Positions 1 through 4,473 of a stretch of DNA of 7,485 bases are shown in pieces (the stretch's first letter is position 1; each line of letters opens with the position of its first letter). The DNA comes from a virus. Taxonomy: Duplodnaviria > Heunggongvirae > Uroviricota > Caudoviricetes. The notes below the pieces were generated by a model that ran no database searches, was not told where the DNA came from, and worked only from the letters and a program-made list of their open reading frames with translations. The stretch spans positions 1 through 7,485 of the IMG/VR virus record IMGVR_UViG_2675903661_000009. One strand, given 5' to 3'. The position numbers and the translations under genes are program-made.

Positions 1-192
1 CTCCTTTTACGGAGAGGCGCTAACCTTTCACTTGCTTAGGATGAATGGTCAGGCCTCGGGTTAAACATGAATGTTTGTCCGGGGCCTTTTCACATCCGGC
101 CTTCAGGTGTTCCCTCCGGCCATCAGCCAAAGGCACCCGCGCATACTGTACGGTTTTTGTCTCCTTCCGGCAATCCGTATTCCGGCTGCCTG

Positions 193-3100
193 TCACGATC
201 TCCGGGTAAAACCGGAATCTGTCGATTTCGCCACCATGAGAGTAAAGGCGTCATATCTCCACCGCACCAGCTCTCTCTTTCTCCCTTCCACATCCCCCAT
301 ATTGCCAGGACCACCTTCAACTCTCATTGTCACTGTAATCCGTGTATCTCCCCCTCCTGCCACCACATCCCATACTCCTGAAACGGTGTCCCCGAGGTTG
401 GTGTACGTGTTAACAGCATTGCCATTTCTGTCAAAACGACCTGAAAAACCCGTATCAGCAATTCTCGGTTCTGCCTTAATGACAACTCTTCCGTTAATCT
501 CTATCGTCAGTGTTCCTGAATAGAAAAAGAAGGGAAGGAGTATCAGCTTGCGATCAAACGAAACATCATCAACAAGAGATACCTCCGCCTTAAAGATGAC
601 ATAACCCTCTCCATACTTGTGGTTCGTAATATGGAGCGTGCCATCACGAGGTTCGAAGGAATAGCCCTTGACGATATCACCGATGATTCTGTCTGCGCTA
701 ATGGTTCCTTTAACAACGCAGTTTTCTGCAATGGTCACGTTATTCAGCGTGCCCGAGTTCGCACTGATATGTCCGCTGATGTCAGCATTGCGGGCCGTCA
801 GCCTGCCCTCCGGCGTCAGGGAGAACGTCGGGGGATTGCCGGACGAGGTGATGCTTACTGCAAACAGTCGCTTCAGGAACACATCGTTCATGAACAGCTG
901 ATTCCCCTGCGCCACAAACAGCGGCGTGGTGTTGCCGTTCTCCGGGTTAATCATCGCGATACGGTCCGCCTGCAGCAGTATATTGCTCAGGGGCTGGCCA
1001 TCAGCATCCTCAATCCCCGCACCTATACCGGCAACATACGGAATGCCGTTTTTTGTTTTCTGCACCTTCAGCATGTACAGCGCAGCCAGGTCGTTATTTG
1101 TGTCTGTCTGCACCCGCTGTATCTGCTGTATGGTGGCGCTCTGGTCTTCCAGGGTTTTACTGACCGTCTGCGTGATTTCATTGCGGGTTTCTGTGATGGT
1201 GGTCTTCATCTCCGCCATCAAAATGTGCGGGCCGGAGACACTCCACTGACTGCCTGTCCCCAGATAACGGGCAGAGGTTTCCACCTGAGATGTGTCTGCG
1301 ATTTTTGCCTCCGAAAACCAGAACTCAAACTGTACCGTCGGGTCATACACCGTAAGATGCGGGACCGCCGTTATCTGATAATACCCCGGCGTCAGCTCAA
1401 TGCTGTCCGGTGCTGCAGGCGCATTAATCCGGAACGTGGTGGTGGCAGGTTCGCCCTGCTGGCCGTAGCTGTTTATCGCCCTGACCGTCAGGGTGTATTC
1501 CCCGGGCGGCAGGCCACTGAAACGGTGCTCCGTGTCGGCAGTGATGGCGCTGGTCACCAGGCGGCTGTTTTCACCGTTTCCGCTGGTCAGGCGCAGACTG
1601 AAGCGCACGCCCTTCACCACCCGCGGCGTGTCCCATTTCGCCAGCGCCAGATACTGACCGTCTGAGGCACTCACCTCCACCGTGAGGTGCTGCACTGCCG
1701 GCGGGATGACGCTGTTCAGTGAACCGGAGAGCGGCTCAAAGCGGGCCCCGTTATCCACGATGGCTTCTTTTTCCGGTACGTGCTGCACTGCCGTGATGGC
1801 AAAGGTGCCGTCCGTGTTTTCCCGGATGGAAACACAGCGGAACAGGCGACGACGCAGTGACGGCAGGGAGAGTCCCCACACACCGTATGTCTCCACGCCA
1901 TCCGGCAGGGCGCTGACCTGTATCCGGTCCGGGGCGGGGTGTGCAGTGATGTCCACGCGCACCGGCTTACCGCTGCCGTTAATCAGGTTCACCGTCGATG
2001 TACCTGTCTCCGGCAGTGTCACCTCACGGTCCAGCGTCAGTGTGCGGCTGGCGGCATCGATGGACAGGATGCGTCCGCCGGTCAGGGTCCCGGCGTAGTC
2101 GTTATCACAGATTTCAATGATGTCACCGGGCGTGTGCCGCAGCCCCTGTGACCCGAGCGTGAAATCCACCGTCTGCGTTTCCAGCAGTTCGGTCTTTATC
2201 ACCCACAGTCCGGCACGGTGGGCCTGACCGCGGCTGGTACAGCCAAACGCATCCATCTTCAGCAGATTGCGCCCGTAGCGCAGGATGGCGTCCGGGTCTT
2301 CCACCAGTTCCGTGGAAGTCTGCCAGCCGTTCTGCGGGTCGGTGTAATTCACCTCCACCGCCGTGTGCCGGTCCTTCAGGGCACTGAAGCTGTAGCGGAA
2401 CCCCACGCCGTTATCATCCACCACCACATCGCTGTTGGTGTACGGCCACACCACATCCGACGGACGGTCCTGAACGAACGTCAGCGTCTGGCCGTTCCAT
2501 ACCGGCATACAGCGCATCGCCGAGCAGAAATCCCCCAGGACATCCCAGACCTTACGCTGCTGTGACAGGTACGCATTGAAAGTCATCCGCGGCTCTGTGC
2601 CCCCGAAACCATCCGGGACCGTCTGGTCACAGTACTGCCCGATGGCATACAGTGCCCACTTGTCCACGTCCGGGGCCCCCAGGCGTTTTCCCATCCCGTA
2701 GCGCGGGTGGGTCAGCATGTCCCACAGACACCAGGCCGGGTTATTGCTGTATGCCGGTTTCAGACTCCCGTCCCAGATACCGCTGTAGGTGCGTTTTTCC
2801 GGGTCATAGTTTGACGGCACCTGAATGATGCGACCACGGATATGGTAGTTCACCGTCAGCTGCTGGCCACCAAACTGCTCCGCATCCACCTGCAGCCCCA
2901 CAATGGCCGTGTTCGGGTAGCACTGTTTCACATCGATGATTTCGGTGTATGACGACCACAGCGTTCTGTTCTGCAGCTGGTCCGTGGTGCTGTCCGCCGT
3001 CTCCCTGACCATCCGGATGTTAAAGGGGCGCTCAGGGAGATTATTCAGAATCACCGACGTCAGGTACTGCGAGGTGGTCTTGCCGTTAATGGTGATATCC

Positions 3101-3552
3101 TTCTCCGTCACCCAGTTACCGTTACGCTCAAGCTGAATCAGCAGGCGGACAGAAGAGGGATTACGGTCACCCTTTGAGGTGGTCTCCACCAGTGACTGCA
3201 CCCCGAAGGTGACCCGCAGACGGTCAATGTTCGCTGACGTGATGGTGCGCGTCACCGGCTTTGCCTTCGTCACCTCCACGCCCAGTGCGGTTTCAGCCCC
3301 GGAAGACTCAAAGCCTTCCGGCGGTGTCTGCTCCTGCTCCCCGGCACGCCAGACGGCGGTCACACCGTGTATCACGGGATTACCGTCCGTGTCCGTCAGC
3401 GGGGTTTTGTTCACCAGAATACTCTGCAGTCCCTTCACCGGACCTTCCACCGGTCCCTCACCGATGGCATCAATCACGCTCATCATCTGCGTGGATTTGA
3501 GATTGTCCTTCGCCTCACGCGGTGTGTGCCCCTTGCCGCCCCCTTTACCCAC
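193..3552 (-). CDS. J: Tail tip host-specificity protein J (central tail fibre), about 1119 aa
   Basis: Minus-strand ORF 193..3603 in the track. From the internal GTG at 3550-3552 the product reads [22 protein letters not shown]..., which aligns with the lambda gpJ N-terminus ([22 protein letters not shown]) as I recall it. Similarity continues across most of the length (e.g. [36 protein letters not shown]). The tool's TTG start at 3603 lies 17 codons upstream without matching homology. Stop TGA at 193-195. Confidence 0.9.
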
Positions 3553-3557
3553 TCTGT

Positions 3558-3568
3558 CCCCCTCTCCT
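3558..3568 (-). promoter_or_regulatory. Shine-Dalgarno region for J (AGGAGAGGGGG), 5 nt upstream of the GTG start
   Basis: Minus strand reads ACAGGAGAGGGGGACAGA-GTG-GGT-AAA; the purine-rich AGGAG/GGGGG block is at appropriate spacing from GTG 3552..3550. Confidence 0.5.
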
Positions 3569-3590
3569 GTCTGATGTCTGAATCTGTTTA

Positions 3591-3625
3591 TGCCAGAAAA
3601 CAACAGGCACCCCGGAGGGTGCCTG
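3591..3625 (-). terminator. Intrinsic-terminator-like hairpin (9-bp GC-rich stem, 4-nt loop) followed by a U-rich tract on the minus strand; possible attenuator upstream of J
   Basis: Plus 3604-3612 caggcaccc pairs perfectly with 3617-3625 gggtgcctg, loop cgga. On the minus strand the stem is followed by UUGUUUUCUGG (plus 3603..3593). It sits about 40 nt upstream of the J start codon. Confidence 0.4.
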
Positions 3626-3755
3626 TGTCATGACGGAATAAAATTTCTGAAACTCTTCACATTTCCGGCAACTGCCTGTAGCCGCAATAATGACGCTGCG
3701 TTACTTTTTTGATGCCTGAAAAATAACTCCATAACGTTAATCTTCATCGTTATTT

Positions 3756-3793
3756 CCCGCAGCTCCGCTAACTCTGCGGGATTTTTTTATTTT
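3756..3793 (+). terminator. Plus-strand rho-independent terminator (7-bp stem, 11-nt loop, T-tract ATTTTTTTATTTT), antisense to the tail operon
   Basis: Plus 3756-3762 cccgcag pairs perfectly with 3774-3780 ctgcggg; a run of 7 T, then A, then 4 T follows at 3781-3793. On the minus strand the hairpin is flanked by A-rich sequence, so terminator polarity is plus only. The T-tract abuts and overlaps the stop codon of I (3793-3795). Confidence 0.45.
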
Positions 3794-4473
3794 CATCCCC
3801 GCCCGATAACCACCACTTTCCCGTCTCCGCCCTCATCACGGGTGCTGATATCCTGGGATATCCGTCGTGAACCAACCAGCATTTCACCGTAAGGCACCGG
3901 CATCGGGTTACCCTGGGCAATCATGTTGTCCAGTGACGAAAAATACGTGTTCTGTTTACCGTTATCCGTACTTTTGTATTCCGGCGTCTTTGCCTTCGGG
4001 GCCAGCATCTGAGCCACACCACCCAGTATCATGCTGGCACCCAGTGAGAACAGCATCGTGGTGGCAGTCAGCCCTCCGGCACTCAGGGCTGCGCCCCACA
4101 ACGCCATCGTTGCACCGGCTGTGAAGAAAGAGCCCACGATGGCTGCTGCCCCCAGCACCACCTGAAAAACACCATTTCCCCCGGCTCCGGCCAGTCGCGG
4201 CACAATGTGGATGACCGCTCCCTCACCCAGTTGTTCGTGAAGACAGGCATACACCGCCTCCGGCGCGGTATCCTCACCGGCAATACGTATCTGATACCAG
4301 CCTTCGTTCATCTGACAGCGGAATCCCGGCACCTGCAGCGACAGGGCACGGATGGCCTCCGCTGCCGTGTTCACATACAGGCTGATGCGGCGACCAAATC
4401 GTTGTAAATCCCCGTGAAGGCAGATGCGGACCAGTGGCGGTGACGCCAGACAGAATGCGTTCGTCGTTGCCAT
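3793..4473 (-). CDS. I: Tail tip assembly protein I, 226 aa
   Basis: Minus ORF with ATG at 4473..4471. The product (ICLHGDLQRFGRRI ... GKQNTYFSSLDNM ... VVVIGRG) resembles lambda gpI (223 aa in lambda, from memory), including the Gly/Ala-rich hydrophobic segment. Its 5' end overlaps the 3' end of K by 103 nt in another frame, as in lambda. Possible SD GAGAGG about 11 nt upstream. Confidence 0.85.
   Translation of the reverse strand: MATTNAFCLASPPLVRICLHGDLQRFGRRISLYVNTAAEAIRALSLQVPGFRCQMNEGWYQIRIAGEDTAPEAVYACLHEQLGEGAVIHIVPRLAGAGGNGVFQVVLGAAAIVGSFFTAGATMALWGAALSAGGLTATTMLFSLGASMILGGVAQMLAPKAKTPEYKSTDNGKQNTYFSSLDNMIAQGNPMPVPYGEMLVGSRRISQDISTRDEGGDGKVVVIGRG

What the first reader, a model, noticed from the sequence alone, without database searches (positions are those of the whole stretch)
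3553..3792. Expanded, AT-rich I-J intergenic spacer with structured elements
The gap between the I stop and the J start is about 240 bp. From my recollection of lambda coordinates (I ends 15444, J starts 15505) the equivalent gap there is about 60 bp, so roughly 180 bp appears to be extra here. My hand count of 3631-3750 gives about 39 percent GC, against clearly GC-rich flanking tail genes. The spacer holds two strong hairpins with opposite terminator polarity and a 39-codon ORF. That combination looks like a small moron-like insertion or an embedded small-RNA locus rather than a simple spacer. It is the only part of the window the known tail genes do not explain.
Basis: partly seen in the sequence, partly recalled or inferred. 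Interest (0 to 1): 0.55.

Follow-up and report, generated by a model that had tools for sequence, protein, structure and literature searches.

The report
Known prophage small-RNA gene between tail genes
The unusually long, AT-rich gap between phage tail genes I and J holds a copy of an already described Hfq-dependent small regulatory RNA gene (PasB / EcOnc22-24) that prophages of pathogenic E. coli carry as extra cargo, so the finding is real but largely already explained.

Summary
The tail genes lie on the minus strand. I ends at 3793 and J starts with GTG at 3552, leaving a 240-bp spacer of 39% GC (3631-3750) between 58% GC genes. Lambda's gap is 60 bp. The extra DNA is a known sRNA gene read antisense to the tail operon (plus strand, about 3698/3714 to 3788).

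- It is 97% identical to EcOnc22 of O157 Sakai prophage Sp15, which has an Hfq-CRAC peak, a ~85-nt Northern band and is destabilised in Δhfq.
- It is 74% identical to PasB of EPEC E2348/69 (83 nt, Hfq-dependent, RIL-seq partners).
- Both published RNAs sit in the same 240-bp I-J gap.

The 39-codon ORF is not conserved and is probably not a gene. The second, tail-sense hairpin (3603-3626) has a counterpart in lambda's 60-bp gap, so it is probably ancestral and not part of the insert.

I did not find these points in the papers I read:
- An invariant CRP-like palindrome (TGTGA-N6-TCAGA, 3643-3664) sits at fixed spacing upstream of the -10.
- Two to four such cassettes occur in tandem at this junction in other prophages.
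- sodC can occupy the same site.

Verdict: real, correctly interpreted, already known. Interest is modest.

The parts
3793..4473 (-). Tail assembly gene I (226 aa); its TGA stop is at 3795-3793
   Evidence: ORF list; Pfam Lambda_tail_I, E=2e-15; annotated as I in VT1-Sakai
193..3552 (-). Tail tip / host specificity gene J (1119 aa), GTG start at 3552, Shine-Dalgarno sequence AGGAGAGGGGG at 3568-3558
   Evidence: Pfam GpJ domains; the J start is annotated at the equivalent base in Sakai and E2348/69
3553..3792 (.). I-J intergenic spacer, 240 bp; 3631-3750 is 39% GC
   Evidence: lambda's gap is 60 bp
3596..3626 (-). Tail-sense terminator-like hairpin: 10-bp stem at 3626..3603, then UGUUUUC. It occurs once per spacer, next to J, and is probably ancestral.
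   Evidence: Nearly invariant in 75 unique spacers, with a C-G to U-G to U-A series in the stem. Lambda's 60-bp gap has an analogous hairpin, CCGCC-TGCG-GGCGG-TTTTGT.
3643..3664 (+). CRP-like palindrome. Tail-sense strand: AAATGTGA-AGAGTT-TCAGAAAT. sRNA strand: TCTGA-N6-TCACA. Centre at 3653.5. Candidate activator site of the sRNA promoter.
   Evidence: Only match in the window at up to 3 mismatches to AAATGTGA-N6-TCACATTT, with 0.01 expected. The most conserved block of the cassette. Present at fixed spacing (24 nt from TCACA to the -10) in all 21 unique promoters retrieved independently of the box. Repeated in every module of the tandem arrays.
3686..3691 (+). -10 hexamer AATAAT (TATAAT in PasB and many variants); candidate promoter P1, predicted start G3698
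   Evidence: Alignments. Hexamer census at the fixed position: TATAAT 70, AATAAT 55, TATCAT 50, CATAAT 16 of 216. Inference, not mapped.
3702..3707 (+). Alternative -10-like TACTTT (TAnnnT in the main variant types) preceded by the conserved GCGT; candidate promoter P2, predicted start G3714
   Evidence: The conserved GCGTTA block. A start at G3714 lies 1 nt from the position homologous to PasB's annotated 5' end, E2348/69 1466343, which maps to window 3713. Inference.
3698..3788 (+). PasB / EcOnc22-family sRNA gene at maximal extent (91 nt). The mature 5' end lies between 3698 and 3714. The 3' end is in the U7 run, 5 nt from the I stop codon.
   Evidence: 88/91 identical to Sakai EcOnc22 and 74% to PasB. 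Northern probes of both papers map here on the tail-sense strand, so the RNA is antisense to the tail genes. The Hfq-CRAC peak converts to about 3713-3782. Fold -20.3 kcal/mol, z=-3.4.
3725..3747 (+). Conserved, predicted mostly unpaired target-pairing region: AACUCC (anti-Shine-Dalgarno-like) and UUAAUCUUCAU (loop of the second hairpin)
   Evidence: Conservation; fold. The preprint 10.64898/2026.05.13.724894 proposes the PasB seed just upstream of the terminator. Weak support from complementary 7-8-mers in RIL-seq partner regions such as ler.
3755..3788 (+). Intrinsic terminator of the sRNA: 8-bp stem UCCCGCAG/CUGCGGGA, 11-nt loop, U7
   Evidence: The stem is the same in the main cassette types while the loop varies; a minority cassette type carries a different hairpin plus U-tail at the same place.
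3628..3747 (-).
   Evidence: The reading frame is cut to 26 codons or fewer, with no Met, in most of the 75 unique homologous spacers. No Pfam hit. Its start, ATGAAGATTAAC, is simply the complement of the sRNA's conserved region.

Best explanation
The I-J spacer consists of two things.

(1) Next to J there is a short tail-sense hairpin followed by a U-rich run. Lambda has one in the same position, so it is probably an old feature of the tail operon.

(2) The rest, about 155 bp, is an inserted sRNA cassette of the PasB / EcOnc22-24 family.
- It is transcribed from its own sigma-70-type promoter on the strand opposite to the tail genes.
- It ends at an intrinsic terminator 5 nt from the I stop codon.
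- Homologues are expressed in the lysogen while the flanking tail genes are nearly silent. They give a roughly 75-91-nt RNA that binds Hfq and needs Hfq for stability.
- The RNA is inferred to act in trans. A conserved unpaired stretch (AACUCC ... UUAAUCUUCAU) would pair with host and virulence mRNAs and change their translation or stability.
- The terminator has no U-tail in the tail-sense direction, so it would not act as an intrinsic terminator of late transcription.

Shown: homology, position, orientation, the terminator, and the published expression and Hfq dependence of the homologues.

Inferred: expression of this particular copy, the exact 5' end, the seed, and regulation of the promoter by CRP-cAMP through the invariant TGTGA-N6-TCAGA box.
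For: - Spacer identity: the spacer is 98.3% identical to that of VT1-Sakai/Sp15 and about 80-85% identical in more than 100 Stx phages, where it is unannotated.
- EcOnc22/23/24: these are Hfq-CRAC peaks with a ~85-nt Northern band, 'destabilised' in Δhfq. All three fall in the 240-bp I-J gaps of Sp15, Sp14 and Sp11. Their Northern probe has the tail-sense sequence of those gaps.
- Coordinates: the paper's coordinates are offset about 137-146 nt from the current RefSeq record, calibrated with the Rfam AgvB hit. This puts the peak at window 3713-3782 on the plus strand.
- PasB: 83 nt, NC_011601 1466343..1466261, between E2348C_1436 (I) and E2348C_1437 (J), antisense to both. The probe matches. 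Δhfq log2FC is -6.8 and -2.4. BaseMean is 482-1082, against 5-15 for I and J.
- Partners: RIL-seq partners include ler, bfpB, bfpI, perB, ftsZ, gshA, glk, galE and hflX.
- Similarity and fold: window versus EcOnc22 is 88/91 identical; window versus PasB is 74%. Fold z=-3.4.
- Spread: the cassette is present in 1825 of 5426 complete E. coli genomes, up to 10 places per genome, and unannotated.
- Absent from lambda: lambda has only 60 bp, with the hairpin.
Against: - No expression data exist for this exact copy.
- Its -10 is AATAAT, not TATAAT, and its -35 is poor (TTCCGG). The Sakai copies share both features and are expressed.
- The 5' end is unresolved. P1 predicts 91 nt and P2 predicts 75 nt; the Northern estimate is ~85 nt.
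- No PasB target has been validated, and the family's function is listed as unknown.
- Rfam has no model for it, so membership rests on sequence and synteny.
- The CRP-like box would be centred at -44.5 (P1) or -60.5 (P2). Neither is the canonical -41.5 or -61.5.
Confidence: 0.88

Rival explanations
1. The sRNA acts mainly in cis. It is fully complementary to the I-J intercistronic part of the late tail transcript. It could pair with that transcript during induction, trigger RNase III or RNase E cleavage, and tune J versus I expression or dampen leaky tail-gene expression in lysogens.
For: The antisense orientation and complete overlap with the intercistronic RNA are seen directly. The cassette position is strictly conserved at this one junction. 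The complement of the conserved region reads as a Shine-Dalgarno-like AAGGAGUU in most variants.
Against: PasB forms many Hfq-mediated chimeras with unlinked host and virulence mRNAs. The cassette does not overlap the J ribosome-binding site; 3558-3568 is about 130 nt away. Lambda assembles tails without it. Arrays of 2-4 diversified copies suggest target diversification, not one cis target.
Confidence: 0.15
2. The spacer encodes a small protein (the 39-codon ORF), possibly the toxin of a type I toxin-antitoxin pair with the antisense RNA as antitoxin.
For: An ATG-initiated ORF (3747..3628) is followed directly by the tail-sense hairpin. The sRNA overlaps its 5' part in antisense, an arrangement that resembles type I systems.
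Against: The frame is truncated to 19-26 codons without a Met in most of the 75 unique homologues; indels are not in-frame and the ATG is lost in some variants. There is no Pfam hit. The peptide is basic and not hydrophobic. Conservation follows nucleotide blocks (box, -10, terminator), not codons.
Confidence: 0.03
3. The spacer is a non-functional recombination scar or plain AT-rich spacer. The hairpins are only transcription terminators or insulators of the tail operon.
For: The tail-sense hairpin does have a lambda counterpart and may simply stabilise or terminate sense RNA. Mosaic junctions are common in lambdoid phages.
Against: Published Northern, Hfq-CRAC and RIL-seq data exist for the homologous RNAs. 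The promoter-like -10, the box and the terminator are strongly conserved at fixed spacing across diverged cassettes. The cassette is multiplied in tandem.
Confidence: 0.03

Closest known systems
EcOnc22 / EcOnc23 / EcOnc24 of E. coli O157:H7 Sakai prophages Sp15, Sp14 and Sp11 (Tree et al. 2014, Mol Cell, PMC4104026)
   Same: Same I-J spacer of 240 bp and same antisense orientation. 88/91 nt identical over the predicted RNA and 98.3% over the whole spacer. Same terminator.
   Different: Three substitutions in the RNA: G3699 where Sakai has A, and GTTATTT where Sakai has GTTCTCT just before the terminator. These lengthen the predicted second hairpin stem. There is also one substitution between the box and the -10. 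The function of EcOnc22-24 is still listed as unknown.
PasB of EPEC E2348/69 prophage PP6 (Pearl Mizrahi et al. 2021, PMC8550237; Zhu, Shabalina and Storz 2026 preprint)
   Same: Same junction, orientation and architecture: box, -10, GCGTTA, U-run, AACUCC, AUCUUCAU, and the CCCGCAG/CTGCGGG terminator with U7.
   Different: Only 74% identical. The window lacks 6-7 nt in the 5' half and differs in part of the proposed pairing region (CUCCAUAACGUUA versus CUCCUUCACAUUG) and in the loop. The -10 is AATAAT versus TATAAT, and the -35 is weaker. The 2021 table lists EHEC homologues for PasA and PasD but none for PasB, and the only paper in the searchable library that mentions EcOnc22-24 is a 2021 review. 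The PasB = EcOnc22-24 link therefore seems not to be stated in what I could read.
Morons of lambdoid phages (Juhala et al. 2000), for example sRNA pairs downstream of PR' (AgvB, AsxR) and lom/bor
   Same: An autonomous cassette with its own promoter-like element and terminator and lower GC than its neighbours. It is present or absent between otherwise collinear phages.
   Different: It sits inside the tail operon, not downstream of PR' or at the operon's end. It encodes an RNA. It is not related to AgvB or AsxR: there are no Rfam hits here, while AgvB was found in the control locus.
HnrS (EcOnc10-12), a multicopy prophage sRNA repressing hha (PMC13502914)
   Same: A short Hfq-associated sRNA carried in the late region of EHEC/EPEC prophages and multiplied by acquiring several prophages.
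   Different: A different locus and a different RNA. EcOnc11 lies about 5 kb from AgvB1 in Sp10, not at the I-J junction. This lead was considered and rejected.

Membership tests
PasB / EcOnc22-24 prophage sRNA | Located in the intergenic spacer between tail genes I and J and read antisense to them | tested here: met
   Window: I 3793-4473 (-), J 193-3552 (-), sRNA on the plus strand. PasB lies between E2348C_1436 and E2348C_1437 on the opposite strand. EcOnc22-24 lie in the Sp15, Sp14 and Sp11 I-J gaps.
PasB / EcOnc22-24 prophage sRNA | Sequence homology to the published RNAs and their Northern probes | tested here: met
   88/91 identical to the Sakai copy and 74% to PasB. The first 23 nt of the EcOnc22/23/24 probe match Sakai exactly and the window with 2 mismatches. 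The PasB probe matches the window terminator region with 4 mismatches in the loop.
PasB / EcOnc22-24 prophage sRNA | [quoted passage not shown] | tested here: met
   8-bp stem at 3755-3781 plus U7 at 3782-3788. PasB's annotated 3' end maps to the last U.
PasB / EcOnc22-24 prophage sRNA | Discrete ~83-85-nt transcript, Hfq-bound, and unstable without Hfq | not testable with these tools
   Known only for the homologues. It needs a Northern blot, CRAC or RIL-seq on a strain carrying this copy.
Moron (autonomous extra gene in a phage operon) | Present/absent polymorphism between collinear genomes and deviant base composition | tested here: met
   Lambda's gap is 60 bp without the cassette. Among 193 junctions the gap classes are about 60, 240, 342, 421-486, 712, 851 and 910 bp. 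GC is 0.39 versus 0.58.
Moron (autonomous extra gene in a phage operon) | Own promoter and own terminator | tested here: inconclusive
   The terminator is clear. The simple promoter scan found none at its threshold, but a conserved TATAAT/AATAAT sits at fixed spacing. Expression in lysogens far above that of I and J implies a promoter. The start site is not mapped.
CRP-cAMP-dependent promoter | 22-bp site matching AAATGTGA-N6-TCACATTT | tested here: met
   3643-3664 matches 13 of the 16 specified positions and 9 of the 10 core positions. It is the only such match in the window, with 0.01 expected. The half-sites are invariant while the central N6 varies.
CRP-cAMP-dependent promoter | Site centred near -41.5 (class II) or -61.5 and further upstream in helical register (class I) relative to the start site | tested here: inconclusive
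   The centre, 3653.5, is at -44.5 from the P1-predicted start (3698) or -60.5 from the P2-predicted start (3714). The start is not mapped. The canonical positions are from established knowledge of CRP promoters, not from a tool.
CRP-cAMP-dependent promoter | CRP binding and cAMP- or glucose-dependent expression | not testable with these tools
   There is only a hint. PasB is higher in overnight static LB than in exponential DMEM, but these conditions differ in many ways.
Anti-sRNAs AgvB / AsxR (Rfam RF02702 / RF02703) | Match to the Rfam covariance models | tested here: not met
   No Rfam hit at gathering score in the window or in the three Sakai spacers, while AgvB scored 96.5 bits in the control locus L006.
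Type I toxin-antitoxin | Conserved small (usually hydrophobic) ORF opposite the antisense RNA | tested here: not met
   The ORF is disrupted in most homologues.

The most novel reading that the evidence does not exclude
The I-J junction of lambdoid prophages is a dedicated docking site for a modular sRNA cassette: CRP-like box, -10, variable pairing region, terminator.

- The cassette would be switched on by CRP-cAMP, that is by carbon limitation.
- It has been amplified into tandem arrays of 2-4 paralogues with at least three different pairing regions (UUAAUCUUCAU, GUGACUAUUCGU, GUUAGUCAACAUCG).
- One prophage could then deliver a nutrient-responsive battery of regulators of host and virulence mRNAs such as ler, bfp and per.

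The arrays and the conserved box are observed here. CRP control and functional diversification are conjecture.
Probability: 0.35. Interest if true: 0.5.

Novelty: already known. Interest (0 to 1): 0.3.

Why it matters
The finding gives a concrete identity to the one stretch of this tail-gene window that protein genes do not explain.

- It is a prophage-borne regulatory RNA present in about a third of complete E. coli genomes, often in several copies, and not annotated in the RefSeq records I examined.
- Two literatures (EHEC EcOnc22-24 and EPEC PasB) appear to describe one family, so their data can be pooled.
- If the conserved CRP-like box is functional, it would link carbon status to a phage-carried regulator whose RIL-seq partners include virulence regulators (ler, perB, bfp).
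- The tandem arrays would be an unusual case of sRNA gene amplification inside a structural operon.

None of this overturns current views. It refines them.

Tried and rejected
- **Rfam.** There were no hits at gathering score. The sub-threshold hits, including GcvB at E=0.5 on 3685-3790, are driven by the terminator and were dismissed.
- **AgvB / AsxR anti-sRNA lead (from memory).** Rejected. Those RNAs lie downstream of PR', and there is no model match.
- **HnrS (EcOnc10-12) lead.** Rejected on coordinates.
- **Literal coordinates of EcOnc22 (2902714-2902774).** On the current RefSeq record these fall on the J-proximal hairpin and contradict the probe position. The conflict was resolved by finding a 137-146-nt offset between genome versions, using AgvB as a calibrator.
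- **39-codon ORF, and the 40-codon plus-strand ORF at 3590-3712.** Neither is conserved.
- **RNAalifold on 23 diverse cassettes.** It gave no consensus structure because the minority terminator type misaligns.
- **RNAduplex of PasB against six RIL-seq partner regions.** It gave uninformative full-length duplexes with z about 0. A k-mer count gave only weak enrichment: 21 complementary 7-mers against 8.9±4.7 in shuffles, partly from U-runs.
- **Sigma-54 reading of the conserved TGGC motif between box and -10.** Rejected by eye; the spacing does not fit.
- **Published start-site tables for Sakai.** No supplementary text is held for PMC7547250 or PMC13502914.

Full report
**Observation.** The window carries lambda-like tail genes on the minus strand.
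- Pfam identifies the end of H, then M, L, K, I (3793-4473) and J (193-3552).
- J begins [18 protein letters not shown] at a GTG at 3552, behind a strong Shine-Dalgarno sequence. RefSeq places the I stop and J start at the same relative positions in Sakai and E2348/69.
- The gap is therefore 3553-3792, 240 bp. Lambda's I ends at 15444 and J starts at 15505, a 60-bp gap.
- GC of 3631-3750 is 0.392, against 0.58-0.59 in J and I.
- The terminator scan finds exactly the two hairpins described, one on each strand, against 0.5 expected.
- The 39-codon ORF is present.

**What it is.** BLASTN shows the spacer at 98.3% identity in VT1-Sakai (Sp15), CP-1639 and Stx2a_WGPS6, and at about 80-85% in more than 100 Stx-converting phages. 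It is almost always unannotated. Two published sRNAs map to it.

*EcOnc22/23/24.*
- Tree et al. 2014 list these as Hfq-CRAC peaks in Sp15, Sp14 and Sp11, with a ~85-nt Northern band that is destabilised in Δhfq.
- The three coordinates fall in the three 240-bp I-J gaps of Sakai.
- Their Northern probe (GGGAGAGAACGATGAAGATTAAC...) has the sequence of the tail-sense strand there, so the RNA is antisense to the tail genes. That is the plus strand in this window, at 3721-3758.
- The listed coordinates are from an older genome version. The Rfam AgvB hit shows an offset of 137-146 nt. This moves the EcOnc22 peak to window 3713-3782, consistent with the probe.

*PasB.*
- PasB of EPEC E2348/69 is 83 nt, at NC_011601 1466343..1466261 on the minus strand, with probe AATCCCGCAGTGATCGCGGAGCT. 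It lies between E2348C_1436 (I) and E2348C_1437 (J), again in a 240-bp gap and antisense.
- In the alignment its 3' end falls on the last U of the window's U7 run (3788). Its 5' end corresponds to 3713.
- PasB drops 110-fold and 5-fold in Δhfq. It is 30-200 times more abundant than the flanking tail genes in lysogens.
- It forms RIL-seq chimeras with ler, bfpB, bfpI, perB, ftsZ, gshA, glk, galE, hflX and others.

The window's RNA is 88/91 identical to the Sakai copy and 74% identical to PasB. Rfam has no model for the family. The 2021 table gives EHEC homologues for PasA and PasD but none for PasB. In the searchable library only a 2021 review names EcOnc22-24. The equivalence of the two names therefore seems not to be stated in what I could read.

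**Anatomy of the cassette.** I collected 193 I-J junctions from IMG/VR. Some were found with a conserved 25-mer, others independently with the I protein. In sRNA orientation the cassette reads as follows.
- An almost invariant ATAAAAtTTCTGA-N6-TCACATTT box (window 3643-3664).
- Then 24 nt, of which only a C-GT(A/G)G motif is conserved.
- A -10 hexamer: TATAAT 70, AATAAT 55, TATCAT 50, CATAAT 16 of 216.
- GCGTTA, then a U-run.
- AACUCC, then UUAAUCUUCAU.
- A CCCGCAG/CUGCGGG stem with a variable loop, then U7.

The box is the best-conserved part. It is present at the same distance from the -10 in all 21 unique promoters found without reference to it.

On the tail-sense strand the box reads AAATGTGA-N6-TCAGAAAT, 9 of 10 core positions of the CRP consensus. 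It is the only such match in the window, with 0.01 expected.

There are two candidate promoters.
- P1 is the TATAAT-like hexamer at 3686-3691, with a predicted start at G3698 and a 91-nt RNA.
- P2 is the conserved cGtTAnnnT at 3702-3707, with a predicted start at G3714 and a 75-nt RNA. That start is within 1 nt of the position homologous to PasB's annotated 5' end.

The box would be centred at -44.5 or -60.5 respectively, close to but not at the canonical CRP positions. PasB is higher in overnight static LB than in exponential DMEM. This fits catabolite control but is far from proof. I rate CRP control at about one in three to one in two.

**The predicted RNA.** It folds into a 5' hairpin, a second hairpin presenting UUAAUCUUCAU in its loop, and the terminator (-20.3 kcal/mol, z=-3.4). 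[quoted passage not shown] That is this stretch. Complementary 7-8-mers in RIL-seq partner regions cluster there. For example, ler has UCCUUCACA once and UCUUCAUU twice. The statistics are weak.

**What does not belong to the cassette.**
- The tail-sense hairpin next to J (stem 3603-3626, then UGUUUUC) occurs once per spacer, however many cassettes are present.
- It is nearly invariant, with a C-G to U-G to U-A series in the stem.
- It has a positional counterpart in lambda's 60-bp gap: CCGCC-TGCG-GGCGG followed by UUUUGU.
- It is best read as an old feature of the tail operon. It may be a terminator for polymerase not modified by Q, or a 3' stabiliser. This was not tested.

The 39-codon ORF is cut to 19-26 codons without a Met in most homologues. 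Its 'MKIN' start is simply the complement of the sRNA's conserved region.

**Wider context seen on the way.** The junction is an insertion hot spot. Gap classes are:
- about 60 bp: lambda;
- about 240 bp: one cassette, 138 junctions;
- about 342 bp: one cassette plus a different hairpin segment;
- about 421-486 bp: two cassettes;
- about 712 bp: three cassettes;
- about 910 bp: four cassettes;
- about 851 bp: the 3' part of a cassette without its upstream box, plus an antisense Cu/Zn superoxide dismutase gene (Pfam Sod_Cu, E=4e-32).

The four-cassette array is found at full length in 67 complete E. coli genomes. Its boxes are spaced 216-232 bp apart. The cassettes in arrays differ in the pairing region, with at least three types. 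The single cassette occurs in 1825 of 5426 complete genomes, in up to 10 places per genome. The preprint does not mention tandem PasB copies, a promoter or CRP.

**Verdict.** The added value here is:
- the link between the two names;
- the correction about the ORF and the ancestral hairpin;
- the CRP-like box;
- the tandem arrays.

Interest is modest.

Noticed in passing
L055:12178-13081 (IMG/VR 2534681673_000010); also NZ_CP027373.1 76250-77154: Four PasB-like cassettes lie in tandem in one I-J spacer of about 905 bp. Their conserved boxes are spaced 222, 232 and 216 bp apart and their pairing regions differ. The array is found at full length in 67 complete E. coli genomes. Two- and three-cassette versions (about 421-486 and 712 bp) also exist, for example L117:1594-2014 and L132:2185-2896.
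   Followed up: partly
L190:2182-3029 and L160 (about 851-bp I-J spacers, 14 junctions): The same junction carries an antisense Cu/Zn superoxide dismutase gene (sodC; Pfam Sod_Cu, E=4e-32). It sits next to the 3' part of a PasB-like cassette (pairing region and terminator, no upstream box), with a GC-rich hairpin between them.
   Followed up: partly
L181:1872-2211 and L196:2182-2519 (about 342-bp spacers, 20 junctions): These spacers have an E2348-type PasB cassette. The usual J-proximal hairpin segment is replaced by about 170 bp containing a different tail-sense hairpin (CCCCGGTATC...GATACCGGGG followed by TTTCTCTTT). A sense hairpin upstream of J therefore recurs in unrelated sequence.
   Followed up: no
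Sakai NC_002695.2 versus the coordinates in Tree et al. 2014, Table S2: The published EcOnc coordinates are about 137-146 nt lower than in the current RefSeq record at 1.94 Mb. AgvB1 is at 1941920-1941981 now, against a listed peak of 1941783-1941835. The probe position implies about the same offset at 2.17-2.90 Mb. Anyone mapping EcOnc RNAs onto NC_002695.2 literally will land on the wrong element.
   Followed up: yes
window 3677-3682 and the equivalent position in all cassettes: A small conserved motif, C-GT(A/G)G(C), lies between the CRP-like box and the -10, about 8-13 nt upstream of the -10. It is not explained by either candidate promoter.
   Followed up: no
window 4371-4473: Gene I starts 103 nt inside the 3' end of gene K (Prok-JAB plus NlpC/P60 domains), the same overlap as in lambda (K 14276-14875, I 14773-15444). 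This is ordinary for this operon.
   Followed up: yes
window 1-192: The 192 nt downstream of the J stop codon show no ORF start on the tail-sense strand. In VT1-Sakai, by contrast, lom begins about 70 nt after J. The window may end before the next gene, or carry different cargo.
   Followed up: no
L006:428-620 (Sakai Sp10): Rfam STnc100 (145.8 bits) lies immediately next to AgvB on the opposite strand. It overlaps an annotated 'hypothetical protein' CDS (ECs_1960), which may therefore be a mis-annotation.
   Followed up: no
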